Source of the DNA: a virus
Length of the DNA stretch: 64,000 bases
Direction: 5' to 3' (one strand)
Virus record (IMG/VR): IMGVR_UViG_3300035438_000194
Location: 49,847-113,846 of that record
Shown: positions 1,889-34,000 of the stretch, piece after piece
Numbering within the stretch: position 1 is the stretch's first letter
Layout of the letters: each line of letters starts with the position of its first letter
Notes under the pieces: model-generated
Told to the model about the DNA's origin: nothing
Database searches by the model: none
The model's input: only the letters and a program-made list of their open reading frames with translations
Position numbers and translations under genes: made by a program

Positions 1889-1892
1889 AATT

Positions 1893-4448: not shown

Positions 4449-4451
4449 GCT

Positions 4452-7130: not shown

Positions 7131-7179
7131 CTCTTAAAAGTTTAAACTTAAATCATTTAATAAACTTCTAAGATTTTAT

Positions 7180-7191
7180 TTGTATATTTAC
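7180..7191 (+). promoter_or_regulatory. Candidate promoter (TTGTATATTTAC)
   Basis: TATATTTA variant of TAnnTTTG in a 71-bp AT-rich intergenic gap; the same 12-mer occurs at 58045-58056. Confidence 0.4.
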
Positions 7192-7201
7192 AATATAAAC
7201 T

Positions 7202-16000: not shown

Positions 16001-18797
16001 TACTGTAGATGGTTCTATAGCACAGGAGTATGATTCACCTGAAGCTGCTAGAGAAGGTCTTAAGGAATGGTTAGCCGTACAACAGAAAAATATTGATAAA
16101 GCTTTAATTGAGGCAGACAGAAGAAAAGCTCTAAGAGAAAACAAAGATGTACTTAACAATCAGTATGTTATTGGAAGCCCTGAAACAGTTGAGGAAAGAA
16201 TCAACAAGATATATGATCAAAAGTTAAGAGATGCTGGTATAACTCCTCCTACTCGAACTAAAGGTAGAGTTAAAGTTAAAGCATTTAGAACCACAGGTAC
16301 CTTCTCATCTAAAGTACAGTATGCTCAACGTGGTGCTGGAGAGTACTATGCATTGGACAAACCTTTCCAAGACTCTGCAGTACCTGGTGAAGTAACTGAA
16401 GTAGAAGTTGAGTATGATACCAACAAAACTTTAGATGCAACAACTGTAGCTGGTCAACAAGAGTTTATGGCTATTAAGATGAGTGCTATCAACGGTAAGA
16501 AGTTTAGCTCTCAAGATGAAATGAATGAGGCTGTGAGAACAGCAATGTTGGAAGCAGGCTATGAGTCACTTATAGGAAGAATCGATGAGGATGTTCCTTC
16601 TGCAGGTAGAGAACTTGTTCTTTACACTAGAATGCCTAATCAAGGTAGTGAGACCAGAGATAAGCAGGAGATGGAGGAAGAGTTTGAAGAACCGATTCCT
16701 GAAGAGAGAGAACCTGTTAGAGAGAAGACTAATCATGAGATAAACTTTGAGACCAGTCCTTTCCAATACAGACCTACTGCAACTACCCTTGGTTACTGGA
16801 ATAACATTGAAGGTAGAATTGTATACTTCAGTAAGAAAACCGGAGAAGAAATTCTTAATCCAAATAGAATTAGGAAAGCTGCGCAAAAAACATTTGATCC
16901 TAACAACAAGAAGACACACGCTAACTTTAAGTTCTGGTGGAATAATCTTCTTAATGATAGACAACGTTATGCTCTCAGAGAAGGTTTGAGGAGTGAGCTT
17001 TGGACAGCTGCAGGTAATGGTGATGACATGTATAGTGATGAGTATCGCATAATGTCAAGACTAAGATACATGAAGTTTAAACCCACTAAATTTAATAAAG
17101 CTGAGTTTACAGATGTTAGTCAAAAAGTATGGTTCTCTGATAAAGGAGCAGCCTTAGATTTGTTTGTGCTGGAAGATCTTATAGGTAATGTTAATAACGG
17201 TTTTCCTGAAGATACTGATCAGCAGTACTTACAAGATATGGTCATTGATCTAATCAAGCAGTATCCTAACGGTATAACTAATTATGACCTAAAGCAAATC
17301 CTAAGAAGAGATAGCTTCCAAGTTCAATTTGAAGAACTTATGGATGGCTTTACAACAAGCTATGGTGTTGACTTAAACAGTCTAGCTGCTTTGATGGATA
17401 TGTATGTAGATACACTAAAACCAGTTAAATCAATACAAGAAATAAATGAACAAGAAGACCGTGAAAGTCAAGGACCATCCACAGATCAAGAGGGCGATGG
17501 CGAGCAGAGAACTCCTACTGAAGTTGCTCCGAGGTTCCAAGGAAAAGTAATTGTTACAAACTTTAGTAGCGATACTCCCCTTGTAAAAGACATTCCGGGT
17601 GTTACTTATGGTACAGATCTTTATGCAGAAGCGTTACCTAAGTTCTTCACTCCAGAAGTACTTGCTATAATGGCTAATGCTAGCATATCAGGTGAGAATC
17701 AATTAGTAAACTCAATATGGGAAGCTGCTAAATTCTTATCAGAAGGTAAAGAACTCACAGCTGAAGATGTTAAAAAAATAAACTCTATACTGGGTCTTTC
17801 TGTATATGTGAAGAATAAGTTTCTTTCAGATCCTAAATTCCCATATAGTGATCGTCCTAAAAACGCACAATTAACACTTGACACCTTAACTAGACTTAAG
17901 GAAGCTGTTGATAATCAAGTAGTTAAAGATGCTAGAGTTATTGCTGAAAATGGTGGTACTGTTGTATTTGATAACAACTCATTGATTACACACCCTGGTG
18001 TAGATGAAGTGTTAATCAGCAAAAGTTCTGATGACTACCAGAAAAAGGCACCAACCTCTGAATCAAGAAGAAACTTTGACGCCCTTATTAGCAATGTTAG
18101 TTACACAGACATCTCAGGTAAAGACCTTGTAGATTATCTTAAGGGTACTGAAACACTGCGGTATACGCTAGATCCTAAACTTAAGAATATAAGAGAGGCT
18201 CTTTCTAAAGCAGAAGACCGTTTGGCAGTAGCAAAAATCATAACGGATACAGGGATTTTAAACGACATAGGTGTGTTGGATCAAATACTTAAAGAACAGA
18301 ACTTAACTAGAGATGAACTTCGTGAACTGAGTTCTAATGCTAAGGCTAGATTCAAGGGTACTCTTGCTTTTGCTGATATTGCGCAACGTATTAAACCAGG
18401 GTTACCAATTGAAGAACGTATTATCCAATACACTGATAAAGATGGTAATGTTAAGACTGGTGTAATTATGGAAGTTATAGGCTTTGTTGATAACGTAGAA
18501 GTTGCTCCATATACTGGTAAAGAAAGTATGTCAGATTTGCAAGATCAGTCAAAGTGGGTTACCTTTACAGTAGGTGAAATACCTTATAAACTATTTGATG
18601 TTAAAACAACACCGCCAGTGACTGCAACTCCAGATATAACTCAACAATCAGATGATTTACTTAAGGCTGAGCAAGCTAATAAAGCTGCTGCAGTAGAAGC
18701 ATTTAAGAATAAAATCAATGATGATGACTTTAAAAATGAATCTGTTGATGATGCTGAGGATGATTTGTTTGACGGACTTCAAGAATGCCCCTTTTAA
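10038..18797 (+). CDS. Giant polyvalent virion protein: Gly/Ala hydrophobic N-region, degenerate zincin, PD-(D/E)XK nuclease, ART-like domain
   Basis: 2919 aa. AGAVDLIAY...IIDLKTS...QQNAY is a PD-(D/E)XK pattern. FRTTG...GAGEYY...GYESLI...ELVLY is ART-like. SILNAVMQ...QFVAEAMTN is a zincin-like scaffold lacking HExxH. Confidence 0.7.
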   Translation: MAEQNTPEKGALVTPATLKLQNAQGAKSPVSGAPVTGDIKRAAGTSAGPPNKQPANMSNQERALARMNGAMLNAYTPDTNKYNKITTYNATHHGRNFERYYAHPKFKELGFSPFRDNEAHYNKNSSLWDDAQRGIVTAGKLFGGAFVGAAKNWSNPFSMEPDTEASDEMERLMSIGSSNRGGFGSSVINFGVNSAYGFGVMGEVLAEEAALALGTAFSGGALGGMAGLRTALNAKKLAGAFSLGKAAKSFTSAFKNVTKINEARQLWGAAKGIGKAADYLTPFSQTRSLLTQAGRAEAKWDSLDNMAKVSKGFGSFYRDLREINAVTYESKLEGGGVQTEVINNLMSDFRKKNGRDPNDQEAQLMYQQGHKAGYLNAQMNAVGIYISNKIVLDKALKGIPGMAQADNVARRTMKGTLLKVQDWAKKGVNPWEVASGIKKYGKAAFYKQTFNPKNLAKGGLGYLSANLMEGTQEVYQEAIANGITSYYMDSFNNPSRVGGAEFQAKMLGGLKSQMSGQGMETFLSGFLMAGPMTAAQSAFFKGMDMTRRAKLKMQDKAFKADPANAGKASPFEEQLNAEKDYDNKVVDALNDMTMDPKKYFSAIEQNARTQADLERLGEQAAADGDMHAAKNIKDESLTNHIITMLESGHFEIFQDQLKGLKELDTQELQEAFDEPGDAKKTVAQRIDAVLKRTEQIKATYQKYQEKTNPFSMREDPLSYMAFEQARNIAIRNDVTYQRTGERMTDILNQFNSNMPFTNADATDFTNLFVVGGMTEGGSPRIGLGSEINLLDQQIQGLDPDIPEQKAEMDRLTEKRDNLKSLSGTLQAFASAYKTTQSAAQTEEKHATNMDTFIETEKVFKEAYATYVRGLAKASGQTVLDSAIDEGFQQLADFWKLNADRQDVANAVNMMQNPDMYRNATEKIRDAMDKAFAARKESLKKALDGYKKKHLVNAFFNDLFEKYNAFVEPEEANGYIDKNIVPETFYDADTLEEIEPGSEKYKGIMALIDQYDEIYFEETGERLIRTELPENMQRLAGYNTETKEAIYQEFTPRDPKDKRSIAALAKEFGFNNIDTESPVEALEVLKAIARSKHGYVPRAQKKLAQALLGFIKPGTLIRFKNGHRTNSTFDPVNGIIVDANFSAEGFQNANIPIEFSILNAVMQQVASESLADPDFNNRITALREQFNESLEANDRNYFKYALANNQQFVAEAMTNADLQAEMGKKPFEGEMTEQTAEAKTMWESFMDSIYEALEKIFGVTRGKSLYQEAMNVITNKLAQPGVAGPSAVPSVLAEDEVIEDDIDIEEDEPELDQMLRAKFNEIVNAMPAADKVGMNFETWKQSDSVAISMRNKYNADKIKKKTGTPGGATVMTEAEQVRRLTSLGYQISEINNMKKDGKQDDIDNIIKNDIKKKIQIRSVDSKGNVTYIEADYDQPITARPNVIAAINKAVKTLEDANVGLTADEENYIQRVQVGVDEKTGEPIYKQKEGTPLYERTSHVVKDKFEGTNKEATDRGNIIDLLLRDFLKGDILDIRQFRNAYAKYQKKHSSAVFSEEMLNDLFDKFRSVQILLKSNGLTVISNLPGLYGKIGKRYTAGAVDLIAYDAAGRVYIIDLKTSTQDRRAQYKLETDLENEFGARYSEIKEAIKGGREKKKSLSETLNSTRISEEDKKRIMKVAEANPTEDAIYFFKDQDAKQQNAYKELLRQSTGLVADMLTIFPLLTSKTGKIFTKVEFQKEGKDHSMRVETYDIHDKLGLVNEATYPENPIDRAAKETPITKEPAEEPITEVPNFFTLGDVNYSENGIDTKYYIAVPQSSTLSWDEIVEKNSITREEYIKAYAESLKEKEAIRKREEKEREVAEEKRKKEEAYWGNNTNNLVGKTLQFDVGENEKGEPFRKSVKIEKVHLLENGNYRIIASSRGGRLYDVTTDENGNILSYTRDGKTFSGNITDEIFFPSDSFVKPLESTVEEQPTQENEGPVFEVFGNDVVYTVDGSIAQEYDSPEAAREGLKEWLAVQQKNIDKALIEADRRKALRENKDVLNNQYVIGSPETVEERINKIYDQKLRDAGITPPTRTKGRVKVKAFRTTGTFSSKVQYAQRGAGEYYALDKPFQDSAVPGEVTEVEVEYDTNKTLDATTVAGQQEFMAIKMSAINGKKFSSQDEMNEAVRTAMLEAGYESLIGRIDEDVPSAGRELVLYTRMPNQGSETRDKQEMEEEFEEPIPEEREPVREKTNHEINFETSPFQYRPTATTLGYWNNIEGRIVYFSKKTGEEILNPNRIRKAAQKTFDPNNKKTHANFKFWWNNLLNDRQRYALREGLRSELWTAAGNGDDMYSDEYRIMSRLRYMKFKPTKFNKAEFTDVSQKVWFSDKGAALDLFVLEDLIGNVNNGFPEDTDQQYLQDMVIDLIKQYPNGITNYDLKQILRRDSFQVQFEELMDGFTTSYGVDLNSLAALMDMYVDTLKPVKSIQEINEQEDRESQGPSTDQEGDGEQRTPTEVAPRFQGKVIVTNFSSDTPLVKDIPGVTYGTDLYAEALPKFFTPEVLAIMANASISGENQLVNSIWEAAKFLSEGKELTAEDVKKINSILGLSVYVKNKFLSDPKFPYSDRPKNAQLTLDTLTRLKEAVDNQVVKDARVIAENGGTVVFDNNSLITHPGVDEVLISKSSDDYQKKAPTSESRRNFDALISNVSYTDISGKDLVDYLKGTETLRYTLDPKLKNIREALSKAEDRLAVAKIITDTGILNDIGVLDQILKEQNLTRDELRELSSNAKARFKGTLAFADIAQRIKPGLPIEERIIQYTDKDGNVKTGVIMEVIGFVDNVEVAPYTGKESMSDLQDQSKWVTFTVGEIPYKLFDVKTTPPVTATPDITQQSDDLLKAEQANKAAAVEAFKNKINDDDFKNESVDDAEDDLFDGLQECPF

Positions 18798-18817
18798 TAA
18801 TTTTAAAAAATTGAGTA

Positions 18818-21800
18818 ATGATTTGTAAACCTGACGGAACATACGAGATAGAACAATCTGATATTGATAAAGTTAATAAATGGGTATATAAGCTTCTTAG
18901 CACTAGAGCTACTAGCGGTACCCGTACTTTTGACCTTAATGCTTTTGTTAAGTATGTATATACCAGAAGTTTAGAAAAAACAAATGATGCTCAAAAGGCA
19001 TTAACAATTGCTAGACAGGTTCCAATTGCTATTGATCTTGTTATCAGCGCTGATCCTGATCTTAGAAAAGGATTAGCTGCTTTACAAGGTTACTCAAGAG
19101 ATGCAGTTGATGCTATGGGAGATTCTTTCTTAGAGTCTATGACTGCTGTATCTGATTTGGTTAATACAGACCCTACTAAGAAGGATCTTGCTAATACCTT
19201 AGCAGCAACTGCAAATGTAGAATTGTTACAACCTGTAACTCCTACAATACAAGCAGGTGCATTAGAGACTGGTAGAGAACTTGTAAGTGATTTGCCTTAT
19301 ACACCTCTCAGTACAACTGGTAATGAAGATATACCAGGTAGAGAATGGTACTATGGTTTTATAAAGAATATTAGCAATCAAGATCTTGGATTAAGTAATA
19401 CTGGTACTGCATCATACTTTGGTGTTAAAGATGGTATCCGCATTGCTATGGTGCTTGGTAGTCAGATTCCTGTAGATCAGTTATACTTGGATGTACAGAA
19501 TCAAACTGACATTGAAGACATAAAAAAGAATCAGTTGTTTACTGTAGTTACAGATAATGCTGGAAACTTTGTATACTTTAATGAGAACTATGAGGTAACT
19601 GATGCTGAGAATGGTAAACTAGTATACTTCCCTACAAGAACTATCCCTTCTATGAAGGTAGTAGATGGACGCAAGGTGTTTAATCTAGGTGAGCAATCTG
19701 ACCGTACTGTACAAAGTATTAAGGATAAAGTGCGTAAAATAATGGCTGACGCTCCTTTGCTTAAAGAGAAAGATGCAAGAGAGCAAGTAGAAGTAGAGTT
19801 CCAAGGAGCCTACAGTCTACTTAGTGATATAGCAGATCATTTACAAAATAATCCTTCAGATAAGGTATTACTAAACTTGACTGGTATCAATAAGGGTACA
19901 TTGCGCTATGACCAAGATACGGTTACTCCGCTATCCTCTATCAAGAACTTAGGCGCACTGAATCTTAGGATTAGAACAACTGGCGTTAGTTCTGAAGGAA
20001 CCAAACAAGAATTTGAAACAAGAAGATATCTTGCTATTGATGGTGTATCAGACAAGATAGGATTCTCTATGAACAGCTTTAGTACAGCAATGGCCTCTAA
20101 AGTAGCTGACTTATTAGTCAATGATGTTTATACAGAAGATGGCACTCGTTTGTCTACAGATGACAAATACAAGATGATAAGAACCTTTGTACCATTGGGT
20201 ACTACAGGTCTTACTATAGTTACGGCAAATAATGAAATCAAGATTGGTGGTAATACAGTAGACTTATCAGATAAAGCTGCAGCAAAAGCAGCTATAGTAG
20301 AATTCCTTACAAGAACCATTAAAGTAAATGATTCAAAAGGGAACGAGATAGAGATTAAAAACCAACTGCGATTTGACGGAAAGACTTACGAGGCTTCTAA
20401 CGGAGTCATTGATGATTTTACTATTACACCAGCATCAGATGGAACATACACAGTTGCTAGCAATTTAGTTGACTACAAGACTTGGCTTAAGGATAATGCT
20501 TATATCAAAATACAACTTGACTCTAACGGTAACGTTACACAAGTTAATGGTTACTTTGAATTCAATGCAAGTCCTGAGACAAGAAAAACTATAGCAAGTA
20601 GACAAGTTGAGCAGATGGCTGTACCTAAGAAAGGTGGAGATCTTTCTTTGAACGGTTTGACTGCACCAACAGTTGAGGATAAAGAAAACGCATTAGCTAA
20701 AATTAGAGAAAGAGCAAAGGGTAGAAACAACAAACCTTTGTTCTCAATGCGTCATGATTCATTAGCTGCAAACAAGGCTCAGATTAGACGAGGTAAGAAG
20801 TGGTTTGATACTACTGAAATTAAGTTTAAAGATGCAGACGGAAAAGTTGTAACTAAGAAACTATCAGAGATTGTACCTTATGAGGTTATGTTTAACGTGA
20901 TCAACAGCAATGGTGATATACGTGCTACATGGACCCGTAATGGTATTACCCTTTTCAATGGATCAGACTATACAGACCTTTACCATGAAGCATGGCATGG
21001 CTTTACTCAGTTGTTCTTAACTGCTGATCAGAAGACTGCTTTGTATAATGAGGTAAAGAGTCTTAAAGAAGACATTAAGTACTATGATCATAAGGCTGGA
21101 GAATGGAAGACCATGAACTCCAAAGACTTAGATTTTAGCGACAGAAATCATATTATATATGCTGAAGAATATCTAGCAGACAAGTTTAGAAAATATTCAA
21201 TGGACAGATCTGCACCAAGTGCTAAAGTTAAGTCCATCTTCAGAAAGATATGGGATGCTATTAAAGCATTGTTTAGCAGAAGCACTAAAGAATCTGCGGC
21301 TAACCCATATAACAACACATTAATAAATCAAGCATTTGACCAGTTATATACTGGTAACTTAGTTGACTATACATTTGATCAAGCTAACATTCAGTTTGGT
21401 CAGTTAAACTATGGTATAACAGCCATTGATAAAGATTTAAACGGTATAGAAGGTCTTAGTGTTGAAGACTCTCTTGCTATATCAGAAGGTATAAACCACT
21501 ACATAGCTGAGTATATTGATATGGCGGTAGCTGGTCTAGTATACGGTGATGCTAATCCTGCATATAGTTCTTTGATCCTAACGGACGCTGAGTACAAAAA
21601 GGAAGCATTATTTTACGCTAAGGATATGTTACAGGTTCAGCTTGATAAACTTTTAGCTGAGTATGGTACAAAGGTTTCCTACGAGAAGCAAATAGCTGAG
21701 AGACAAATCAAAACATTAACATTTGCTATTGATCAGTTTGGTGATCTAGATGATTTACGTAATAATAAGAAAGGTACATTAGCATTCTTTAATAAGAAGA

Positions 21801-24800
21801 CCGGTTACTTAGATCTTACTACGTATAAGACTGATGATAATACAGATGATGCTACTGAGGAGGATGACGATGATTCTGGAAGACCAACAAAGTCAAAGGA
21901 CAGAACTGGTATGTATGCTGGTAACGGTACGGAACTTTCTGGTCTTGAGAGAATGGACTCAATATTAAAGTTTGCATTCTCAAACATAACAGAGATAGGA
22001 CCTGATGGGATAAAGCGTAATCAGATGGGTCTTCCTGTAATGGCTTCTTCAAAAACAATCTTCAATATGGTTTCTTCCCTTACGGAGAATCTTAATGATA
22101 GAGAGGAAATGTATAGAGCCATTTGGAATAAGTCAGAGGAGAAAGAAAGAAATGGTGAGCCTACACCTATGGCTCAAATGCTCAAGCAGTTCCTAAGCAA
22201 AGTAGGAGAGCCTAAGGATGCTACAAGCGGTATTGCGCAATTGTTTTGGAATAAAGTATTCCATGGTTTACGTACAGACCGTTTAACGAGCATACAAGTA
22301 AACATTAATAAGACAAAATACGGTCACGAAGTTATAGTTGGTGAGACTGACTCTTCTGATAAAGCTATCTTAAGAGGTTGGCAAGATGCCTTTGTGTTTA
22401 ATAATAAGTCTGATTATCTTATTGTAGATCCTAAGACTAATGAGAAGTACTTAGACCTGAAAGCATTGAATGCAAAGTATGGTAATATTGGTCCGGGTCA
22501 GCCTATTGAAAGTATTGACCAAATCAATCCTTATCAATTCTTTAAAGATTTTGGTATTCTCATAACACCAACTAATAAGAATCTTAAGGCTATAAGAGAT
22601 CAAGATATTATAAGAACTCTACTTAGATTTAGGCTTGCCCCTTTAATGAGGATTCCTGATTTAAAAGTAACTAGCTATAATAGTCTTTTTATGGAGAACC
22701 ATCCTTACATTGATGCTAAGGGTGAGAAGTCGGTATTACAAGAACAAGGTGGTGTAATGAATAAATTACTAGCACTTGAGTCAAAAGCCAATCCAAAGTA
22801 TTCTGACTACATGCGTTTGTTTGGTGCTGATGCAAGAAGTGAGAGATCAAATCCAAGCGGTCCAGGTAATACACTCATTGCTTTAAATAAAGCAGGTAAC
22901 TTCAATAATATAATATCAAGACCTGAGCTTAGTCAATATAACCCTAAGAAGAATCCTGCAGTTAAGACATCTGTTATTTTTAATAAGATGTTCCCTAGTT
23001 TAGGGGCAAGAGATCAAAGATACAGTCTTGACTACCAAGCAATGTTAGGTACTCAGTATATTGATAAGAGAGCGGGTATTGATACATTAGTAACTAGTCT
23101 AGCATCAGCAGAATCAGATGAGCAAGTAGCATATCTACGTGACTTCTTCTCTTTCTCATTGCATGGTGCAGCTGAAGCGTTCAAGCATGCTGATAAGAAC
23201 ATGGCTTATATCGTACAGCTACTTGGTCCACAAATGTTCTATATACCCATAGCAGACTTTGCAAAAGGTACTGGAGAAGGTAACACAGGAAAACAAGCTG
23301 CAAACAAAATTATAACTGGTTACATAGCTGCTGAGTTAGAAAGAATCAAGAAGGTACTAGCTAGTAAAGAACTTACATCTGGTGAGAAAGCATCAGACAT
23401 TATATTATATACAGATTCAGAGGCAACTGTAAAAGATGAGGATGGTTTAATCAGAGAAGTAAAGTATAAAACACTAGCTGATGTTGGTGTTGAGTTTACC
23501 GTGTTTGATGACATCCTATCAGATGATTTAAAGGCTAGACTTATAAATGATAAGAGTATTCAGACAGTTGAAGACTTCCTAAAGTTATTATCTGGTGATA
23601 AAGCCTTAGAACAAAGCATTCACAGAGAGTTAAATACTTACTTTGCTAAGCTGGTAAAAGAAGATAGAGACCAACTTGAGTCTTTTGAGTTCTTTAAAGG
23701 CGCTAATAAAGCTAAGTCACTTAGTACTATTAAAAACAGATCGTTTAAAAATAGTAGTCTTAGTACTGATGAAATCTTTGATGCATCAGTGTTACACTAT
23801 GTGTATGCATCATTCATCCACAAGATGGAGATGAGCACCTTGTTCTATGGGGATGCTGTTATGTTCCAGCATGATAAGGATGAGCATATGAAAAGGATTC
23901 CTACATTCTTTGCTACAGGAAAGATTCCAGTGTTTGATGACACTATGGAAAACTGGTTGTTATCATCAGCAGGAGGTTACTATAAATCTGAGTTCTTTAA
24001 AAACTCTGGGTTGACTCAACCTACTAGTAATCAATTAGTTACAAGACAATTGAATACTGCTATCCTTGAGGATGCCATAGAAAGTATATCAAAAGAAGCC
24101 TTTGACCAAATGGTGGAGGCGTACCTAAAAAATAATCCAGGAGCTACAGAAGCTGAAGCTAAAGCTAAGTACAAGTCATATAGGAATATGAAGTCAGCGG
24201 ATGCTCAAGGATGGATTTCCTTTGATGCTTACCGTGCTTTAGAAATACGCTTAGACAACTGGAGCCCTGCTAAAGAAGTAGTATACCAAGAGGTGTTAAA
24301 AGGAGAGATCAGTGACCCTGAAATACTTGAGACATTCTTCCCTGTTAAGAAGATGCAGTATGCTGGACCTATGGGTACTGAGAACTTTGCGGCTAATGCT
24401 GTACACAAGTACTCATTGATGCCTTTGATTCCTACTATTATTAAAGATACAGAGCTCGAGAAACTACACAATAAGATGGTTTCTCAGAACATTGCTTACT
24501 CTGTAATGCACAGTGGTTCTAAGGTTGCTAGTATAGGTAATGGTAATAAGTTAAGTAAGTTCTACACTGAACCGAACGGTAACCGCACATTGGCATTTAC
24601 TGCTCCTGATTACCAGTTCTCTTCTAGTGTTATCTACTTAGATTACTTTAAAGAGCAGCTCGTAACACATGATACTGCAAAGGGTAAAGTAAAGTTCCCA
24701 ACACAGAAACGTGCATTGGTTACATCTGGCCTTGATGAGTTTGGTGTACCTACAGACTTTGAAGTAGGTAGCACTGATGATGAAAGATTAACTGCTTGGA

Positions 24801-27800: not shown

Positions 27801-30800
27801 ATGCTGGTAGATTTATGTCTATGCCTAGCATGGGTATCTTTAGTATGTATGATACTTTCTCAGCTATACTTAACCAGGCAAATATTCAAGGTGTAAATCT
27901 AAAAGAACAGTTCCCTGTATTAGAAAGCCTTAGACAAACTGAAGTAGAAGGTAAGAAGTTTAACTTTATTACTTTAGCTAGAAAGGTTAAAGATGTAGAT
28001 GATCGTACATCATTTACAGCACAGTTGCTTAGCTTGATGAATCCTAATGTCCGTAAGGTTGGTAATGAAGGTTTCAATCTTGCTATCAGTTCTTTCTTTG
28101 CTAAGTTCCCAGAGATGGCATTTGCCCAAGCTGGTAACAACAGTGCAAGTGGGTTATACATTGGTTCAATCGTAGACGCTAAGTCTATAGCAGTTGCCCA
28201 AGCGGACAACTTAAATGAGTACATTGAAGCCCTTAAGGATCCTGAAACAGCTAAAAACATCTTAAATGACTACGCTAGAAAGTTTGAGCAAAAAGCTCCT
28301 TACAAAAACAAAGCAGCTTATTTTAACTATAACAGTAACAAGGATATCACTGATTATATTCCTGAGGCGCTACCAGAAGATGCATTATCAATTGCAGAAT
28401 CAGAAGTAAAGAAAGAGCCACACTGGAGAAAGGATGAGGCTATGGCCAATGCTTCAACAAAGGCAATTGCTAAAGCTACACAGCCAAAAGATGTTACTTA
28501 TAGAAGTTCAACCAAAGCTTATCTAGAAGCCCTTGGCGGAGCATCTACAGACTTTACAAGTTCTGATGCTGTATGGATATTTGGAGCAGGTGCTTGGAGT
28601 GCTACAGCAAAGAATATCAAAGAAGACTTTGATAATTACTATGTACCTATGATCAATAGAGCCTTAGAATCAGGTGTCACTACCTTCAATATAGGTACAG
28701 CATCTGGTATTGATACTATGGCAACAGACTACTTAAAGAGTAAAGGCTTTACTGTAGAGTCACAGGGTGAGTGGAATAAACTTACTGGTGGACCGGTAAC
28801 AGCTGTTGAAACAGCTAGAACCATCTATGATAAAATTAATAAAGATCAAACAACGCAGTCAGAAAATGTAGTATTACCTAAAGATTTAGAAGACAATAAA
28901 ATATATTCAGGTAAGGAATTCTGGAATAAAATTGTACCAGAAGCGAGGGATATGTTTGATGATAAGGTAAATCCAAAAACAGGTCAGACAAGACCAATGA
29001 TTGTTGCGTATAGAGGTAGTCATAAAAAAACGTTTTTGCAGAACTACAAAGATGGCCTTACTGTAGGTAATCCTTTTGATTGGCAAGTTGAAACAGGCAC
29101 TGGGGATGAGAAAGGTATAAAGTCTACTAAACGATTTATACATTGGATGATTACCGGAGATAACATGGGGACAGCTGCAGCTACTCCAGAGTACAGACAA
29201 GCTATCATAGATGATATTAAGTCAGGTAAGATAAAAGGCAGTCCTATTCTTTACTATGCAGAGAAGAACTATGCTACTCACGCAACAGCTTTAGACTATC
29301 TGATCAATAAGCATGACTGGGATGCTCAAGCTCCCGGTGCTCGTAAAACTTATACTGGGAAAATAACTAGTTTGCAACCTAATCAAATATTTGTATTTGG
29401 TTCCAATGAAGGAAGTTCTAAAGGAGGTAAACCTACACATGGATCAGGTTCTGCTAAAGATGCTAAAGACAAATTTGGAGCTATTCAAGGTCAAAGCAGA
29501 GGAGCTCAAGGACAGTCTTATGCAATTGTAACTAAGAAGTTCTACGATGTAAAAAAGTCTAGCACTCCTCAAGAAATCATAGAAGAGATCAAAGGTTTAT
29601 ATGCATATGCTGAACAAAACTCTGATAAAGATTTCTTAGTATCTGACTACTCTGAGAGTAACCTTAATGGTTATACCGGGCAAGAGATGGCAGATATGTT
29701 TAATGCTGCTGGATCTATACCTTCTAACATTGTGTTTAATCAAAACTTTGATAAGCTATTACCTAGTACTCAAGCTCCTAGAGCTACTGTAAAAGGACCC
29801 GGTCCAGAGACTAAGATGAATATTTATGCCGGTACAGGAGAGAATGCTGAATTAAGTAACTTTGCTAATAGACCTTTTTTCCCTACAACTAATGGATTGG
29901 CACAAGCTAGATTTAATAATGTAGAAAGTGCATATCAAGCAGCTAAGATTCTATTCTATACAGATAAAAGTGATAAGGCTACACTTGAATATAATGCATC
30001 TCTATATAACCAACTTAAAAATACCAATGGTTCTCAAGCTAAATCTATAGGTAAAAATATTAGATCTTTAAACATTCAAGATTGGGATGCTAATTCTTCT
30101 AGAATAATGAAGGAACTGTTAAAACAGTCCTTTGAACAAAATCCAGATGCTCTTGCTAAACTTCTTGCTACAGGTAATGCTACTCTTACACATACACAAG
30201 ATAGAGGTAAGTGGGCTACAGAGTTTCCAAGATTGCTTATGGAGGTAAGAGAAGAGCTAAGTCCTTCTCAACCACAAGCAGCAGCTGGACCAACTGTACA
30301 AGCTGCCCAAGCTGCACCAGGTCTTATCATTGACATAAGAGGTCCTAAGGAACTAGTTGATTATGAGACTGGTGATTTGATACCTGTAGCTAAAGTATAC
30401 AAGCAGACTCAGTTCATTACAAAAAATGGAGACGGAGTGGAGATTGCTTATACTCTTCCTGAACAACTTGCTAAACAAATAATGGATGAGAATCCAAACA
30501 ATGTATTTGTATTTGATTGGTTCCGTCCTCACAGTACTGGTAAAGAAAACACTGCTGCAAGAAACAATACTAGACAAGCTTGGAGATCAGGTTTAGCAAC
30601 TGGACAAAGTTTTGGTATCACTACTAGAACCTTTGAAGGAAAAACACCAAGTGATGTACAGTTTGAAGGTGTTAAAAAAGTTATTGATGAGCAGATTGAA
30701 CAACTTGTACAACTCCGTGACTCAGGTAAGATCATTACCTTCCCTTCAGATGGTATAGGTCAGAACTTTAAAGGCTCAGGTGCTGATCGAATCTTTGTAT

Positions 30801-31009
30801 ATTTGTCTAAGAAGCTTCTTGAGAATTTTGGTTACAGAAATCCAGCGTTTGATAACATAAGCTTAGTACTTGGACCTTTAGAAGTAACAGGTACAGACTA
30901 TACGCAAGACTTCTATAAGAAGATGGCGGATGCTGAGTCTGGAGAAAAGGCTCAGACAGTTACAGACAATGAAGTTAGAGAACATATTAAAACGTGTAAA
31001 ATAAAGTAA
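18818..31009 (+). CDS. Virion RNA polymerase polyprotein (crAss-like) with N-terminal zincin and C-terminal accessory domains
   Basis: 4063 aa. Catalytic GGDFDIDK (DFDID at 25547-25561) is preceded by RIPIQGHNSM. HEAWH at 20984-20998. The C-terminus holds SLOG-like, DUF4326-like, macro-like and NADAR domains. Confidence 0.9.
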   Translation: MICKPDGTYEIEQSDIDKVNKWVYKLLSTRATSGTRTFDLNAFVKYVYTRSLEKTNDAQKALTIARQVPIAIDLVISADPDLRKGLAALQGYSRDAVDAMGDSFLESMTAVSDLVNTDPTKKDLANTLAATANVELLQPVTPTIQAGALETGRELVSDLPYTPLSTTGNEDIPGREWYYGFIKNISNQDLGLSNTGTASYFGVKDGIRIAMVLGSQIPVDQLYLDVQNQTDIEDIKKNQLFTVVTDNAGNFVYFNENYEVTDAENGKLVYFPTRTIPSMKVVDGRKVFNLGEQSDRTVQSIKDKVRKIMADAPLLKEKDAREQVEVEFQGAYSLLSDIADHLQNNPSDKVLLNLTGINKGTLRYDQDTVTPLSSIKNLGALNLRIRTTGVSSEGTKQEFETRRYLAIDGVSDKIGFSMNSFSTAMASKVADLLVNDVYTEDGTRLSTDDKYKMIRTFVPLGTTGLTIVTANNEIKIGGNTVDLSDKAAAKAAIVEFLTRTIKVNDSKGNEIEIKNQLRFDGKTYEASNGVIDDFTITPASDGTYTVASNLVDYKTWLKDNAYIKIQLDSNGNVTQVNGYFEFNASPETRKTIASRQVEQMAVPKKGGDLSLNGLTAPTVEDKENALAKIRERAKGRNNKPLFSMRHDSLAANKAQIRRGKKWFDTTEIKFKDADGKVVTKKLSEIVPYEVMFNVINSNGDIRATWTRNGITLFNGSDYTDLYHEAWHGFTQLFLTADQKTALYNEVKSLKEDIKYYDHKAGEWKTMNSKDLDFSDRNHIIYAEEYLADKFRKYSMDRSAPSAKVKSIFRKIWDAIKALFSRSTKESAANPYNNTLINQAFDQLYTGNLVDYTFDQANIQFGQLNYGITAIDKDLNGIEGLSVEDSLAISEGINHYIAEYIDMAVAGLVYGDANPAYSSLILTDAEYKKEALFYAKDMLQVQLDKLLAEYGTKVSYEKQIAERQIKTLTFAIDQFGDLDDLRNNKKGTLAFFNKKTGYLDLTTYKTDDNTDDATEEDDDDSGRPTKSKDRTGMYAGNGTELSGLERMDSILKFAFSNITEIGPDGIKRNQMGLPVMASSKTIFNMVSSLTENLNDREEMYRAIWNKSEEKERNGEPTPMAQMLKQFLSKVGEPKDATSGIAQLFWNKVFHGLRTDRLTSIQVNINKTKYGHEVIVGETDSSDKAILRGWQDAFVFNNKSDYLIVDPKTNEKYLDLKALNAKYGNIGPGQPIESIDQINPYQFFKDFGILITPTNKNLKAIRDQDIIRTLLRFRLAPLMRIPDLKVTSYNSLFMENHPYIDAKGEKSVLQEQGGVMNKLLALESKANPKYSDYMRLFGADARSERSNPSGPGNTLIALNKAGNFNNIISRPELSQYNPKKNPAVKTSVIFNKMFPSLGARDQRYSLDYQAMLGTQYIDKRAGIDTLVTSLASAESDEQVAYLRDFFSFSLHGAAEAFKHADKNMAYIVQLLGPQMFYIPIADFAKGTGEGNTGKQAANKIITGYIAAELERIKKVLASKELTSGEKASDIILYTDSEATVKDEDGLIREVKYKTLADVGVEFTVFDDILSDDLKARLINDKSIQTVEDFLKLLSGDKALEQSIHRELNTYFAKLVKEDRDQLESFEFFKGANKAKSLSTIKNRSFKNSSLSTDEIFDASVLHYVYASFIHKMEMSTLFYGDAVMFQHDKDEHMKRIPTFFATGKIPVFDDTMENWLLSSAGGYYKSEFFKNSGLTQPTSNQLVTRQLNTAILEDAIESISKEAFDQMVEAYLKNNPGATEAEAKAKYKSYRNMKSADAQGWISFDAYRALEIRLDNWSPAKEVVYQEVLKGEISDPEILETFFPVKKMQYAGPMGTENFAANAVHKYSLMPLIPTIIKDTELEKLHNKMVSQNIAYSVMHSGSKVASIGNGNKLSKFYTEPNGNRTLAFTAPDYQFSSSVIYLDYFKEQLVTHDTAKGKVKFPTQKRALVTSGLDEFGVPTDFEVGSTDDERLTAWNALPDEKARLKASKAYTLKRNYQKAFKELFDTAKDKLKMELGYKDPKSTSKTEGLNLEKLMAFVEEQLLNRETLSEYELDFLQMSPSGQLIYPQDFGSDPSQIEKLISSLVNKRITDQMSRGESFIQVSSVGFRKADLAADSSLLFYRIGPDGKTLPMQVKIPLMGDFKNLLNHVDNDGKKIGTLARLNELIKDEKWMNENREMLTMGGDRIPIQGHNSMEVMEVAEFFDPAGGNMMVLPLEIVAKTGGDFDIDKLICLIPVIKNNMGVVELSKPTKTRKVLKTIVKEKSDLYNELKALRKQYIKEELTPEFREEISKLEDEQRAAQQEFNENYINDYYVGGSLDKYMNRINSAQQTIDAIYDQLFEDRKEVFQGEFDQYIDEAQPILNKLRELNRQEDTFSPDAYQNNLMQAMNDILLRGENFTNLTLPNDTETYTAKGGIVDEFTSVNRPYQRSNNKTNNRRKKMSPTRIMENRYNNVKAFAMSAGKSGVSLGAKTNKIFIKYKEVGLYFEPTYTAIKGNKQYPIKQRLLVDHKTVLVNGKRAISMGHGKDVNGKDISDQISQLMNGYLDVAKEDWVFDINAVKELEPEFLLLLQAGVGPRMATALISQPLVKKYVEAIRKRSNAFSLAVSDKETSLSFAKYEALLEILDKNMPDIFNYADAPVNQETGNIITPSNEKLLFDAQRFLGNRGNFNIDDLIANAKKGPDSGVTGYDIEAFAHFMEIMDLTKGDKELKQSIDIDTKKQLTALDATKKINALKDLSGRFPKSKIKSLLDDTYLSNFKTQGLLLEAISKVLPLRGLKSLNDFAYDLSKNKKFDDQKARENYEKNLIADFPSYIAANARPRVTSNDASYRGVEIEQTIPINKQTLLKFGAIYMDGALQVDQTQIDIDFDNRAYTKDGYGDGLLAKLPPTVFSEYDKGKKTARNLYRAFVFEREIARAAFPYTEIEGTDDQFELFRAEFQMYQVMRMNTPGGAKLDLVDQYEEFIRNKALYNAGIDAGRFMSMPSMGIFSMYDTFSAILNQANIQGVNLKEQFPVLESLRQTEVEGKKFNFITLARKVKDVDDRTSFTAQLLSLMNPNVRKVGNEGFNLAISSFFAKFPEMAFAQAGNNSASGLYIGSIVDAKSIAVAQADNLNEYIEALKDPETAKNILNDYARKFEQKAPYKNKAAYFNYNSNKDITDYIPEALPEDALSIAESEVKKEPHWRKDEAMANASTKAIAKATQPKDVTYRSSTKAYLEALGGASTDFTSSDAVWIFGAGAWSATAKNIKEDFDNYYVPMINRALESGVTTFNIGTASGIDTMATDYLKSKGFTVESQGEWNKLTGGPVTAVETARTIYDKINKDQTTQSENVVLPKDLEDNKIYSGKEFWNKIVPEARDMFDDKVNPKTGQTRPMIVAYRGSHKKTFLQNYKDGLTVGNPFDWQVETGTGDEKGIKSTKRFIHWMITGDNMGTAAATPEYRQAIIDDIKSGKIKGSPILYYAEKNYATHATALDYLINKHDWDAQAPGARKTYTGKITSLQPNQIFVFGSNEGSSKGGKPTHGSGSAKDAKDKFGAIQGQSRGAQGQSYAIVTKKFYDVKKSSTPQEIIEEIKGLYAYAEQNSDKDFLVSDYSESNLNGYTGQEMADMFNAAGSIPSNIVFNQNFDKLLPSTQAPRATVKGPGPETKMNIYAGTGENAELSNFANRPFFPTTNGLAQARFNNVESAYQAAKILFYTDKSDKATLEYNASLYNQLKNTNGSQAKSIGKNIRSLNIQDWDANSSRIMKELLKQSFEQNPDALAKLLATGNATLTHTQDRGKWATEFPRLLMEVREELSPSQPQAAAGPTVQAAQAAPGLIIDIRGPKELVDYETGDLIPVAKVYKQTQFITKNGDGVEIAYTLPEQLAKQIMDENPNNVFVFDWFRPHSTGKENTAARNNTRQAWRSGLATGQSFGITTRTFEGKTPSDVQFEGVKKVIDEQIEQLVQLRDSGKIITFPSDGIGQNFKGSGADRIFVYLSKKLLENFGYRNPAFDNISLVLGPLEVTGTDYTQDFYKKMADAESGEKAQTVTDNEVREHIKTCKIK

Positions 31010-31010
31010 A

Positions 31011-34000
31011 ATGGCAAATAGTTGTGCATTTGGTAAGGATTGGGATGAGCTCGTAGAAGCGGTAGGTTTATTCCAAGCAAGTAAGGATTATATTGAGAAC
31101 AATGGAGAGGTTCGTACCCCTGATGAAGTAATAGCTAAGCTAGAAGCTAGAGGGGAATGGGCTGAAGAATCTACTCAGGACTTTACCAGACCAATGCTAA
31201 GAGGAACTGAGATGGACATGTTAGCTGAAATGGCTAACACTATCCCTGGTTTCTCTACTATATTTAATCCAATACACCTATCAAAGGCTGCTACAGACAT
31301 GCGTAAAGGAAACTCTACGCTAGACTTTACTATAGGCAACCTAAGTTCACGTCTTGGTATACCATACCAGATGGTTGATGAGGTAGAAGCACAAACTATA
31401 TTGGATAACTCAGGTACTCCTTATACAGGAGAAGCTGGTTTCTATGTAGGTGGTGTTGTATACTTTATCAAAGACAAGGTAAATACAGAGGTGGCATTCC
31501 ACGAGTTTGCTCACCCATTTGTAAGAGCTATTGCAAAAGAGAACAACGTGTTGTTTGAAAAGCTGCATGCAGACTTACTTCTAACACCTGAAGGCAGACT
31601 CTTAGAGAAACTAATGAGCAACCTTCACCCAGAATTAGAAGCGGGTGCAGAACTATACAAAGAGGAAATGTTGGTACGAGCTTTAACAAAAGCATCTGTT
31701 GACAAGAAGAATAATAAGAAACCATCTTCTGGCTTTGTTAAGTTCCTTAAAGACCTATTGTATGCAATCAAACAGGTTTTTAGAAAGTATGTAGGTAAAT
31801 CAGTTGCAATCTCTGAGCTTACACAAGACACAACTCTAGATGAGTTAGCTGATATTTATACAGAAGCTAATATAAACTTTGATATAGAGTTAGTTAACCA
31901 GAAGGATGTTGTTGCATTTATTAGAGAGACCCGTACTCAAGTTGATGATATAGTTAATATACTTAATACAGATGAGGGTGCTCAAGTTATCAAGAAGGGT
32001 CTAGATAACATCAATCAAGTAGTTAATGAGCATACTGACCGTCTTATAAAGAATAAGAACTTAGATGAAATGTTAGCTATTCTAGAGACAGGATTTGACC
32101 AAGCTGACTTACAAATTATACGTTCTAATATAACTCAGTACAGTAATCTTATAAATGCAAAGTTTACTACTCTTGCAGAAGAGAACAATCGTGTTCAACA
32201 GCAATCAGCAGCTTTTGTAAATACTGTTTTCCAGATCAAAGCAATGGCTGATAAGATGATTCTGCATATGCAGGAGTTATCTAAAAGAGAAACTGATCCT
32301 AGTAAGGTAAAGAAGTTCTACTACTATGAGCAATTGACTAATGACTGGAAGAGAACAATGGCTCAGATCCGTATTGACATGAGTAATGCTGGTATCCTAG
32401 AAGGGCCAATGCTTGATGTTATAGGATCTATTGAGACTAAGTTACAAACAGCTGATACAATTGCAGGACGTGTGCATCTTGAGGGCTCATCTGAATTACT
32501 TGAGAGTGTACTAGAACCACTATCTAAAGAAGTAGATAGATACTATAAAGAAATTATTGAAGAGTTAGAAAAGAAAGGTGCTCCTGATAGAATCTTGAAC
32601 CGTTACAAAGCGGAGTATGATAGCGCTAAACTTGACAAAGCTACACTTAAGAGCTGGTTATCAGGTGAGCAGGGAGACACAAACGTAATCAGTGCATGGA
32701 TGGAGTCATTCATGAACATACAAGACCCGGTTATATTTGGTCTTGCATCTTACGTAAACAACAATATGATGGATGTTATGACTACTGTACAACAGAAGTA
32801 TAACAGACAGTCACAAGATATTAAAGAACTTCTTGATTCAGTTGGTTACAATCCTAATAACCCAAAAGGGATATTAGATCTTGTAGGTTATACTGAGAAA
32901 GAAGGTACATATGGTAAGGACGGTAAGTTTGTAGAGAAAGAAAGAAAAGCTTTCATTCACCACGTTAAAGGGTATGACATAGAGATCACTCGTAAGAATG
33001 ATCAGATTAAACAAGCTGAGCTAGAGTTCAAGAAGACTGGAGACAGTACTGACCTAGACAGATTATATATTGAACGTGAAAACTTACTTAAAGATTTTCA
33101 CAGGGAATATTCAGAGGAAGTTTATGCTAAGGATGATCTTCTTAGCAAAGATGAGATAGGTAAAAAGGCCTATCTTGAACGCTTTAAGATTCTTAGTAAG
33201 ATACAGAACTTAAATGCTACACTTGAAAGTGCGGCAGACAGACATGATCCAGACTACCAGATGTCATTAGCTACATACTGGCAAGAGTATAAGCAATTAT
33301 ATTCTTTATCATATGCTGATGGTACTCAAAAGAAAGGTGATGATCTTGATGTTTCTGTAAGACTTAGAGAACATAGAGAAGCAACTAGAAAGTTCTATGA
33401 GTGGGTACCAAGAAAAGGTATGTTCCAAGGGGCTCTGAAGGCTTATGAGCAACAGATCCTTGATACTAATCCTAGTATTAAATACGGTGGCCCTGAGTTT
33501 AACAGACTACGTGAAGAGTGGCTTAACAATAATACAGTTGTTGCAATTAAACCAGAGTTCTTTAGAGACCGTCAAGTTATCTTAGATAGAATTAATGAAC
33601 TGAAGGCTAAGTTACCACAGTCTGTACAAGACCAGCTAAAGTTAGATGAGATCCTTAAGGAGATGAATGACCAAATCTCTGCTTACAGAGATGACAGCGG
33701 TCAGCCTGAAGGTACTGCAATGAGTGATACAAAACTTGCTCGATTGAAGGAACTACAAGAGCAGTTTGAATTGTATAAAGATGACCTTCTAACAGTACAA
33801 GGTGTAACTAAAGCTGATATTGCGTTTAAGAAACAGATTGATGCAGCTATAGTTGAGTATACACTTAGAGGTAAAGGAGAACATCCGTTAAGTGATCCTG
33901 ATGTAGCACTACGCTATGCTGATATTATCAATGATATGAATGACTTTGGTTTATCTGAAGAAGATGCAGCAGAGTTAACAGAGCTATATCAGAAGTTGTT

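What the first reader, a model, noticed from the sequence alone, without database searches (positions are those of the whole stretch)
18786..31025. Terminal cysteines pair up across the three giant proteins: candidate disulfide-linked head-to-tail ejection chain
Seen (Cys counted by eye): the 2919-aa protein has one Cys, third from the C-end (ECPF*, 18786). The 4063-aa RNAP has Cys3 (MICK, 18824), Cys4060 (TCKIK*, 30995) and one internal Cys next to the active site. The 1849-aa protein has one Cys, at position 5 (MANSC, 31023). So 4 of 5 Cys in about 8,800 residues lie within 5 aa of exactly the termini that face each other in gene order, while the outer termini have none. Known: crAss-like RNAP-cluster proteins are packaged and are thought to be ejected unfolded through the tail. 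Inference: C-term(A)-S-S-N-term(B) and C-term(B)-S-S-N-term(C) bonds, or shared metal sites, would join about 1 MDa of cargo into one thread. It could be ejected in fixed order and released by reduction in the host cytoplasm. I do not know of a description of such a system.
Basis: partly seen in the sequence, partly recalled or inferred. Interest (0 to 1): 0.85.

Follow-up and report, generated by a model that had tools for sequence, protein, structure and literature searches.

The report
Terminal cysteines chain crAss cargo proteins
Three giant proteins of this crAss-like phage, with its particle-borne RNA polymerase in the middle, have almost no cysteine except one at each end that faces the next protein; relatives across the phage order keep this rule and lose the pair where the genes are fused, which points to untested end-to-end disulfide links joining about 1 MDa of injected cargo into one chain.

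Summary
The three ORFs hold 5 Cys in 8,831 residues, and 4 of them lie 3-5 residues from the facing termini.

It is strongly conserved. In 77 independently fetched loci, 160 adjacent pairs of large ORFs gave 113 with both Cys, 46 with neither and 1 with one only. In that one case the upstream protein's sole Cys sits 21 residues from its end.

213 chain proteins (506,314 aa) hold only 31 internal Cys, or 0.006%, against 1.39% in neighbouring genes. Outer termini never carry the Cys.

The pair follows polypeptide breaks. It is absent where modules are fused and present where the same module stands alone. In crAss001 it persists although gp47 and gp50 lie on opposite strands.

Cultured phages obey the rule: phi14:2, crAss001, Rudgehvirus and Fpv1.

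One structural precedent exists. Cryo-EM of Anabaena phage A-4L shows a disulfide between gp27 Cys1715 and gp26 Cys5, and each is the sole Cys of its protein.

The best reading is a head-to-tail disulfide tether between consecutive cargo proteins. The bond itself, ordered ejection and release by reduction remain untested.

This scan noted the same rule earlier on other crAss-like genomes. I found no paper describing it for Crassvirales.

The parts
10038..18797 (+). Protein A, 2919 aa, first chain member; type '-C' (no N-terminal Cys, sole Cys near the C-end)
   Evidence: 58 homologues each have exactly one Cys, 1-11 residues from the C-end. A weak HMM match to crAss001 gp47, E 3.5e-9.
18786..18788 (+). 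Cys2917 codon (TGC) of A, third residue from the end (ECPF*)
18818..31009 (+). Protein B, 4063 aa, virion-type RNA polymerase with accessory domains; type 'NC' (Cys at both ends)
   Evidence: About 24% identity to Crassvirales 'RNAP catalytic subunit' proteins. C3 and C4060 are invariant in a 15-sequence alignment at 24-66% identity. NADAR domain at 3675-3796.
18824..18826 (+). Cys3 codon (TGT) of B (MICK)
   Evidence: invariant column.
20984..20998 (+). HExxH motif of B (residues 723-727), zincin-like
   Evidence: Y722, H723, E724 and H727 are invariant in the alignment.
25547..25561 (+). DFDID catalytic motif of B (residues 2244-2248)
   Evidence: D2244, F2245, D2246 and D2248 are invariant. 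This is the DFDxD motif of crAss-like virion RNAPs (10.1101/2020.03.07.982082).
25571..25573 (+). Cys2252 codon, the only internal Cys of the three proteins
   Evidence: It is kept only in relatives at 57% identity or more and is absent in those at about 40%.
30995..30997 (+). Cys4060 codon (TGT) of B, fourth residue from the end (TCKIK*)
   Evidence: invariant column.
31011..36560 (+). Protein C, 1849 aa, last chain member; type 'N-' (Cys5 only, no C-terminal Cys); HExxH at residues 164-168
   Evidence: HMM match to crAss001 gp49, E 2e-27. Homologues carry Cys at position 3-6 and never within 12 residues of the C-end, apart from one weak, unrelated hit (P0137).
31023..31025 (+). Cys5 codon (TGT) of C (MANSC)
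   Evidence: invariant column C5 in a 22-sequence alignment.
307..10033 (+). Five upstream Cys-poor ORFs of the same block (117, 397, 851, 892 and 943 aa; 4 Cys in total, as two C-x5-C pairs). They are probable cargo or tail proteins and are not part of the terminal-Cys chain.
   Evidence: The equivalent upstream proteins in related loci have no terminal Cys (46 'neither' pairs).

Best explanation
A, B and C are the virion-packaged cargo set of a crAss-like phage. B is the injected RNA polymerase and C carries an HExxH motif that is probably zincin-like. Selection has removed almost every cysteine from them but keeps one cysteine within about 10 residues of each terminus that adjoins the next protein in the series. 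The most likely meaning is that in the particle the C-terminal Cys of each protein is disulfide-bonded to the N-terminal Cys of the next: A-S-S-B-S-S-C, about 8,830 residues or 1 MDa. The separate gene products would then behave like one long polyvalent protein. Because the links sit at the extreme ends, the joined chain stays nearly linear. It could pass the portal and tail channel partly unfolded and in a fixed order, and it would fall apart into subunits in the reducing host cytoplasm. Shown here: the sequence rule, its conservation, and its gain and loss with gene fission and fusion. Shown elsewhere: virion location of the homologues, disulfides in a crassvirus particle, and one such disulfide in phage A-4L. 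Inferred: the bond in this phage, threading in order, and release by reduction.
For: (1) The exact pattern is present in the window.
(2) Homologues keep the types. B-type proteins have Cys at position 3-8 and at 1-6 residues from the end, mostly with no other Cys in 3,400-4,700 aa. A-type proteins have one Cys, 1-11 from the end. C-type proteins have Cys at 3-6, mostly as the sole Cys.
(3) 77 IMG/VR loci were chosen by B homology only. Among 160 adjacent large-ORF pairs, both Cys were present in 113, neither in 46 and one only in 1. Fisher p = 1e-39, though the loci are related and not independent events. 0 of 66 complete last members have a C-terminal Cys.
(4) Internal Cys make up 0.006% of 506,314 residues, against 1.39% in neighbouring minus-strand ORFs.
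(5) The pair follows breaks and not particular domains. The L046 583-aa protein with Cys at both ends is 40% identical to the N-terminal 563 aa of the fused L013 protein, which has no Cys at that point. An ART-PolyVal module stands alone with both terminal Cys in L078 and L077, but lies inside B or C elsewhere without flanking Cys. The A+B fusion in L082 has only a C-terminal Cys.
(6) The cause is not at the DNA or junction level. In crAss001, gp47 (Cys 3 from the end) lies on the opposite strand from gp50 (Cys 5 and Cys 9 from the end) and gp49 (Cys 5). The rule also holds across gaps of 0.5-1.3 kb.
(7) The flanking sequence turns over, with 105 and 113 distinct contexts, while the Cys stays. 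Lys is frequent next to the C-terminal Cys.
(8) Cultured phages obey the rule: phi14:2 gp67, gp66 and gp65, Rudgehvirus, Fpv1 and uncultured Steig-, Intesti- and Suoliviridae genomes.
(9) crAss001 gp47, gp49 and gp50 are in the virion by mass spectrometry, and that particle contains structural disulfides (PMC10172136).
(10) Cryo-EM of Anabaena phage A-4L shows a gp27 Cys1715 to gp26 Cys5 disulfide. Each is the sole Cys of its protein, 3 residues from the end and at position 5 (PMC12002296).
Against: There is no direct evidence of a disulfide in any crAss-like phage. The crAss001 atlas did not resolve these proteins and does not mention their cysteines. Assembly takes place in a reducing cytoplasm, and many of these phages live in the anaerobic gut, so when and how oxidation would occur is unknown. 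In gut Intestiviridae the RNAP protein has up to 15 internal Cys, so strict Cys avoidance is not universal. In A-4L the disulfide staples a folded pre-ejectosome, and a threading role is not shown there either. Recombinant phi14:2 gp66 is active on its own according to the preprint's abstract, so the link is not needed for catalysis. The related loci share ancestry, so the counts overstate the number of independent events.
Confidence: 0.68

Rival explanations
1. The terminal Cys pairs do bond, but only as a staple of a folded cargo or pre-ejectosome complex inside the capsid, giving stoichiometric co-packaging and stability. There is no single-file threading and no ordered ejection.
For: This is how the only solved example is described. 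In A-4L the gp27 C-terminal helix sits in a cleft of gp26, 'further stabilized' by the disulfide. Other disulfides in crAss001 are structural staples.
Against: A staple could sit anywhere on a surface. Here the Cys is always within about 10 residues of a terminus, with one case at 21. It is always C-end to N-end, in the order of the series, in two unrelated phage groups. The flanking sequence is highly variable, which fits poorly with a fixed docking interface.
Confidence: 0.2
2. The facing Cys pairs are joined through a shared metal ion (Zn or Fe), or through another thiol chemistry, and not by a disulfide.
For: A metal site would form in the reducing cytoplasm during assembly. The three-protein sets offer four thiols.
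Against: Two-member chains have only two thiols. No conserved His, Cys or Asp co-ligands lie near the Cys. The one solved case is a disulfide.
Confidence: 0.07
3. Each terminal Cys acts on its own, for example by attaching to capsid, portal or another partner, by forming homodimers, or as a processing signal. The apparent pairing would then be coincidental or a by-product of gene-junction DNA such as translational coupling.
For: None specific. Most pairs lie at tightly spaced gene junctions.
Against: Co-occurrence is near-perfect, 113 both and 46 neither against 1. Both Cys are lost together on fusion. Outer termini lack Cys. The rule holds for crAss001 gp47 and gp50 on opposite strands and across gaps of 0.5-1.3 kb.
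Confidence: 0.03

Closest known systems
Anabaena cyanopodophage A4 (A-4L) pre-ejectosome, gp27-gp26 disulfide (PNAS 2025, PMC12002296; PDB 9K3A)
   Same: Two consecutive ejection-protein genes are involved. The upstream protein (1717 aa) has its sole Cys 3 residues from the C-end (NPCQF*). The downstream protein (1114 aa) has its sole Cys at position 5 (MSKHC). The disulfide between them is seen by cryo-EM. The window's A|B and B|C junctions show the same sequence signature.
   Different: There is no detectable sequence similarity (9K3A is in the searched copy). A4 has a single link, no RNA polymerase and a different phage family (Saffermanviridae). The paper reports the bond as a structural detail, not as a rule, a chain or a substitute for gene fusion.
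RNA-polymerase cargo block of cultured Crassvirales: phi14:2 gp67-gp66-gp65 and crAss001 gp47-gp50-gp49
   Same: These are homologous proteins, found in virions by mass spectrometry. They have the same DFDxD polymerase and the same terminal-Cys pattern. The preprint notes that the three proteins are fused in some phages.
   Different: The papers I could search do not mention the cysteines. The window's proteins are much larger and carry extra domains (NADAR and a second HExxH). The domain order along the chain differs between lineages.
Cysteine-free ejection proteins of Schitoviridae (N4 gp50 vRNAP, DEV gp71-gp73)
   Same: A giant virion RNA polymerase is ejected through a short tail, and Cys is strongly suppressed in the ejection operon (0.00075% in gp71 homologues; PMC11445570).
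   Different: Those proteins have no Cys at all, including at the termini. There the suppression is explained by passage through the periplasm. Here the suppression is combined with positively retained junction Cys.
Polyvalent proteins of phages and conjugative elements (many effector domains in one giant delivered polypeptide)
   Same: Effector modules (ART-PolyVal, NADAR, zincin) are strung along delivered giant proteins.
   Different: Here the string is cut into separate gene products whose cut ends carry matching Cys. This suggests that disulfides stand in for peptide bonds.

Membership tests
crAss-like (Crassvirales-type) virion RNAP cargo block | Giant protein with the DFDxD catalytic motif, related to crAss-like RNAPs | tested here: met
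   DFDID at B 2244-2248 is invariant in 15 homologues. tblastn matched 76 phage records, nearly all crAss-like or Flavobacterium Fpv phages, at about 24% identity.
crAss-like (Crassvirales-type) virion RNAP cargo block | Flanking giant partner proteins homologous to crAss001 gp47 and gp49 (phi14:2 gp67 and gp65) | tested here: met
   Family HMMs gave A against gp47 at E 3.5e-9, B against gp50 at 4e-18 and C against gp49 at 2e-27. C has an HExxH motif, as does the zincin protein gp65.
crAss-like (Crassvirales-type) virion RNAP cargo block | Proteins packaged in the virion and injected | not testable with these tools
   Known by mass spectrometry for crAss001 and phi14:2 only.
A4-type head-to-tail disulfide between ejection proteins | Upstream protein with a Cys within a few residues of its C-end and downstream protein with a Cys at about position 5, each (nearly) the only Cys | tested here: met
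   A Cys2917 of 2919, B Cys3 and Cys4060 of 4063, C Cys5. A-4L gp27 has Cys1715 of 1717 and gp26 has Cys5.
A4-type head-to-tail disulfide between ejection proteins | Disulfide bond observed between the two Cys | not testable with these tools
   Seen only in the A4 cryo-EM structure. There are no data for any crAss-like phage.
A4-type head-to-tail disulfide between ejection proteins | Sequence homology to A4 gp26 or gp27 | tested here: not met
   A and C gave no PDB hit at E<=1, although 9K3A chain B is in the library. The resemblance is one of mechanism, not of family.
Schitoviridae-type Cys-free ejection proteins | Complete absence of Cys from the vRNAP and co-ejected proteins | tested here: not met
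   Internal Cys are nearly absent, but terminal Cys are retained in 113 of 114 junctions.

The most novel reading that the evidence does not exclude
Crass-like phages, and convergently at least one cyanopodophage, deliver their polymerase and effector enzymes as one disulfide-stitched 'train'. Peptide bonds and terminal disulfides would be interchangeable through gene fission and fusion. Small effectors such as a stand-alone ADP-ribosyltransferase would ride as beads with a Cys at each end. The host's reducing cytoplasm would be the release switch. This would be a general, undescribed principle of ordered protein ejection in the most abundant human gut viruses.
Probability: 0.4. Interest if true: 0.88.

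Novelty: new variant of a known kind. Interest (0 to 1): 0.8.

Why it matters
How crassviruses get megadaltons of folded cargo, including their RNA polymerase, through a narrow tail and in what order is an open question; the crAss001 atlas says so explicitly. A conserved covalent head-to-tail tether would give a concrete, testable mechanism for co-packaging at fixed stoichiometry, ordered ejection and redox-triggered release. It would explain why these genes fuse and split so freely. It would also give a simple sequence rule, a Cys at each interior terminus, for recognising which proteins belong to the injected set, including small effectors. It can be tested at once on cultured phages (phi14:2, crAss001) with non-reducing gels and cross-link mass spectrometry.

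Tried and rejected
- **Complex prediction.** C residues 1-400 were folded with B residues 3860-4063, both as alignments. The score was 0.03 and gave no verdict, so it counts neither way.
- **PHROGs and Pfam on A and C.** No families were found.
- **PDB sequence search with A, B and C.** There was no informative hit. B did not reach phi14:2 gp66 by phmmer.
- **BLASTP and HMM tests for fusions.** I tried to show that the Intestiviridae RNAP protein is B+C and that the Fpv1 4401-aa protein is A+B. Only the B core was detectable, so these two fusions remain plausible by length and are not shown. Fusion was shown for L082 (A+B) and for L013 against L046.
- **p-crAssphage.** It could not be fetched under NC_024711 or JQ995537.
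- **One in-frame error.** A tblastn query had the wrong frame and was corrected.
- **Readings rejected:**
  - Chance, at p about 1e-10 in the window alone.
  - Mis-called starts. Only 0-12 codons lie between the upstream stop and the ATG, and the Cys codon is conserved.
  - Translational-coupling or DNA constraint, ruled out by the crAss001 strand arrangement.
  - A single Zn(Cys)4 site formed by all four termini, because two-member chains have only two Cys.
  - An intramolecular B N-to-C bond, because Intestiviridae RNAP proteins lack the C-terminal Cys, and A+B fusions lose A(C-end) and B(N-end) together.
  - Intein-like or ligation chemistry, because no such domains are present and the Cys is not residue 1.
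Full report
**1. The observation**

The + strand of the window carries a block of Cys-poor ORFs that ends in three giants:
- A: 10038..18797, 2919 aa.
- B: 18818..31009, 4063 aa.
- C: 31011..36560, 1849 aa.

An exact count gives the following.
- A has one Cys, at 2917 (ends ECPF*).
- B has three Cys, at 3 (starts MICK), 2252 and 4060 (ends TCKIK*).
- C has one Cys, at 5 (starts MANSC).

That makes 5 Cys in 8,831 residues (0.06%), while minus-strand genes of the same window have 0.5-1.9%. If the 5 Cys were placed at random, 4 or more would fall in the 20 facing-terminus positions with p = 1.3e-10.

**2. What the proteins are**

B is a crAss-type virion RNA polymerase.
- Its middle part matches 76 phage records, nearly all crAss-like or Flavobacterium Fpv phages, at about 24% identity. 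These include 'putative RNAP catalytic subunit' of Rudgehvirus jaberico.
- An alignment of B with 14 homologues (24-66% identity) has an invariant DFDID at 2244-2248 and an invariant HExxH at 723-727.
- Pfam finds a NADAR domain at 3675-3796.

Family HMMs built from the homologues link the three proteins to crAss001:

| Window protein | crAss001 protein | E-value |
|---|---|---|
| A | gp47 | 3.5e-9 |
| B | gp50 | 4e-18 |
| C | gp49 | 2e-27 |

C has its own HExxH at 164-168, like the zincin protein gp65 of phi14:2. In crAss001, gp47, gp49 and gp50 are in the virion by mass spectrometry and are assigned to the capsid cargo zone (PMC10172136).

**3. Conservation**

Three searches of the large protein collection gave 47, 91 and 64 homologues.
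- **B-type proteins.** Nearly all have exactly two Cys in 3,400-4,700 aa: one at position 3-8 and one at 1-6 residues from the end. C3 and C4060 are invariant alignment columns.
- **A-type proteins.** They have exactly one Cys, 1-11 residues from the C-end, and none at the N-end.
- **C-type proteins.** They have a Cys at 3-6, mostly as the sole Cys, and never one within 12 residues of the C-end, apart from one weak, unrelated hit (P0137). The few exceptions start later than their relatives and look like truncated gene calls.

**4. An unbiased junction test**

I fetched 77 IMG/VR loci by B homology alone, with 10-kb flanks. I called ORFs from the first ATG and scored every adjacent pair of + strand ORFs of 500 aa or more.

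| Upstream C-terminal Cys | Downstream N-terminal Cys | Pairs |
|---|---|---|
| yes | yes | 113 |
| no | no | 46 |
| no | yes | 1 |

Both Cys were scored within 12 residues of the end. Fisher p = 1e-39, although the loci are related and are not independent events. In the single exception (L074) the upstream protein's only Cys lies 21 residues from its end.

Other results from the same loci:
- The C-terminal Cys lies 1-10 residues from the end, with a mode of 1-3. The N-terminal Cys lies at position 3-7 and never at position 2.
- 0 of 66 complete last members have a C-terminal Cys.
- First members have no N-terminal Cys wherever the locus includes the true first member.
- 213 chain proteins (506,314 aa) hold 31 internal Cys, or 0.006%. 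Minus-strand ORFs of the same loci have 1.39%.
- The flanks of the Cys are very diverse, with 105 distinct N-terminal and 113 distinct C-terminal contexts. There is only a loose bias: acidic residues, then Lys-Lys-Cys-Lys at C-ends, and M-x(1-2)-C-[P/S] at N-ends. The cysteine itself is the selected feature.

**5. The pair follows polypeptide breaks**

Chains have two, three or four members. Four cases show the link between breaks and Cys pairs.
- **L046.** A 583-aa protein with Cys 4 and Cys 581 sits between B and C. It is 40% identical over its whole length to the first 563 residues of the 2352-aa C-type protein of L013. That protein has Cys only at 4 and 1647, so none at the corresponding point.
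- **L078 and L077.** A 328-aa ART-PolyVal ADP-ribosyltransferase has Cys 3 and Cys 325. The same module lies inside the C-type protein of L026 and near the C-end of the B-type proteins of L035 and L007, without flanking Cys.
- **L082.** A 4424-aa protein matches the A HMM at its N-terminal part (E 4.8e-6) and the B HMM afterwards (E 2e-100). Its only Cys is its last residue. The A(C-end) and B(N-end) Cys are lost together while B(C-end) and C(N-end) stay.
- **Two-member systems.** These behave the same way.

| Phage or group | Upstream protein | Downstream protein |
|---|---|---|
| Fpv1 | 4401 aa, sole Cys 2 from the end | 1596 aa, Cys 3 |
| Suoliviridae cr50_1, cr4_1, cr56_1 | C-terminal Cys | N-terminal Cys |
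| Intestiviridae Rudgehvirus, cr11_1, cr271_1, cr8_1 | zincin protein ending in Cys | RNAP protein starting with Cys, last in the block, no C-terminal Cys |

These patterns exclude an intramolecular N-to-C bond in B, a single four-Cys site, and homodimers. They fit pairing between neighbours in the series.

**6. Not a DNA-level effect**

In crAss001 the Cys positions are as follows:
- gp47: 2341 aa, sole Cys 3 residues from the end.
- gp50: Cys 5, Cys 1334, and Cys 2404, which is 9 from the end.
- gp49: sole Cys at 5.

gp47 is on the + strand, while gp50 and gp49 are on the - strand. Several loci also keep the pair across gaps of 0.5-1.3 kb. In phi14:2:
- gp67: 1797 aa, and its sole Cys is the last residue.
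- gp66: the crystallised RNAP, with only Cys 3 and Cys 2179 of 2180.
- gp65: sole Cys at 3.

**7. Chemistry and precedent**

The crAss001 particle contains inter-subunit disulfides in the gp57 dimer, tail hubs and rings. Oxidised cysteines therefore do exist in crassvirus virions.

A note from this scan's earlier work pointed me to PNAS 2025, PMC12002296, which I read. Cryo-EM of Anabaena phage A-4L shows a disulfide between Cys1715 of gp27 and Cys5 of gp26 in the pre-ejectosome. In the GenBank record gp27 is 1717 aa with Cys1715 as its only Cys, and gp26 is 1114 aa with Cys5 as its only Cys. gp26 is the next gene downstream of gp27. This is the same signature as in the window. A and C show no sequence similarity to those chains, so the resemblance is functional and not one of family.

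Cys suppression in ejected proteins is known for Schitoviridae. There it is complete, with no terminal Cys (PMC11445570).

**8. Literature check**

Full-text searches and reading covered the crAss001 atlas, the phi14:2 RNAP preprint, the Yutin 2021 genomics paper and the N4 and DEV papers. None mentions terminal cysteines in crAss-like cargo proteins. The phi14:2 preprint does note that the three proteins are fused in some phages and are 'likely cleaved'.

This scan's own notes record the same rule on many other crAss-like genomes. 142 notes in at least 127 genomes held my seven search words, and the 8 shown all describe this rule. So it is a repeated finding within the scan.

**9. Interpretation**

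Best reading (0.68): consecutive cargo proteins are tethered head to tail by disulfides between their terminal Cys. Separate gene products would then behave as one polyvalent chain of about 1 MDa.

The extreme terminal position in two unrelated phage groups argues that the joined chain must stay linear. That fits partly unfolded, ordered passage through the tail followed by reductive release.

Fused versions, possibly cut by the built-in zincin protease, and split versions joined by disulfides would be two ways to the same end: linked in the particle and separate in the host.

These functional steps are inferred. The rivals are a purely structural staple (0.2), a metal bridge (0.07) and independent roles for each Cys (0.03).

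**10. Limits**

- There is no direct evidence for the bond in any crAss-like phage.
- The complex prediction gave no verdict.
- Some presumed fusions could not be shown by homology.
- p-crAssphage was not in the collection under the accessions I tried.

Noticed in passing
window 1893-4448 and 7202-10033: Two upstream Cys-poor cargo-block proteins (851 and 943 aa) each have exactly two Cys, spaced C-x5-C (237/243 and 128/134). Similar close pairs occur in crAss001 gp45 (390/398), phi14:2 g069 (369/378) and cr271_1 (337/347). This may be a conserved small disulfide loop or a metal site in cargo protein 1 homologues.
   Followed up: partly
L078:6660-7646 and L077 (identical 328-aa protein); L046:17545-19296; L075:8510-10030: Small proteins of 328-583 aa with a Cys at both ends sit between the B-type and C-type giants. 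The 328-aa one is an ART-PolyVal ADP-ribosyltransferase. In other phages the same module lies inside B or C. This suggests that stand-alone effectors ride in the chain.
   Followed up: partly
window 20984-20998 and 31500-31514: Both B (HEAWH, residues 723-727) and C (HEFAH, residues 164-168) carry conserved HExxH zincin-like motifs. In phi14:2 the zincin domain is in gp65, and in Intestiviridae it is in the protein before the RNAP. So the order of domains along the chain differs between lineages while the Cys rule holds.
   Followed up: partly
window 36530-36560 and homologues P0048-P0110: The outer ends of the chain have conserved, Cys-free motifs of their own. C-type proteins end in a motif like ES-x-Q-N-R-[LF]-K, and A-type proteins start with an acidic MAE/MEN stretch. 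These are candidate leading or trailing signals for docking to the portal or capsid.
   Followed up: no
L003:12600-24190 (cr108_1): The B-type reading frame is annotated as two genes (2967 aa and 798 aa) with a 290-nt gap, yet the B-family HMM runs on from one into the other. Only the second piece has the C-terminal Cys. This may be an intron, a frameshift or an annotation split.
   Followed up: no
L039:9908-22262 compared with L023:9908-22261: L039 has the B-type ORF broken into 3699 aa plus 361 aa, while L023, whose matching ORFs have identical ends and coordinates, has one 4117-aa ORF. This is probably a frameshift or an assembly error. The C-terminal Cys is on the 361-aa piece.
   Followed up: no
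L001 (Rudgehvirus), L003 (cr108_1), L085 (cr8_1): Several crassvirus genomes have a small thioredoxin gene annotated in the replication block. It could bear on making or breaking the proposed disulfides, but phage thioredoxins commonly accompany ribonucleotide reductase. No obvious CxxC thioredoxin motif was seen in the window's ORFs by a simple pattern scan.
   Followed up: partly
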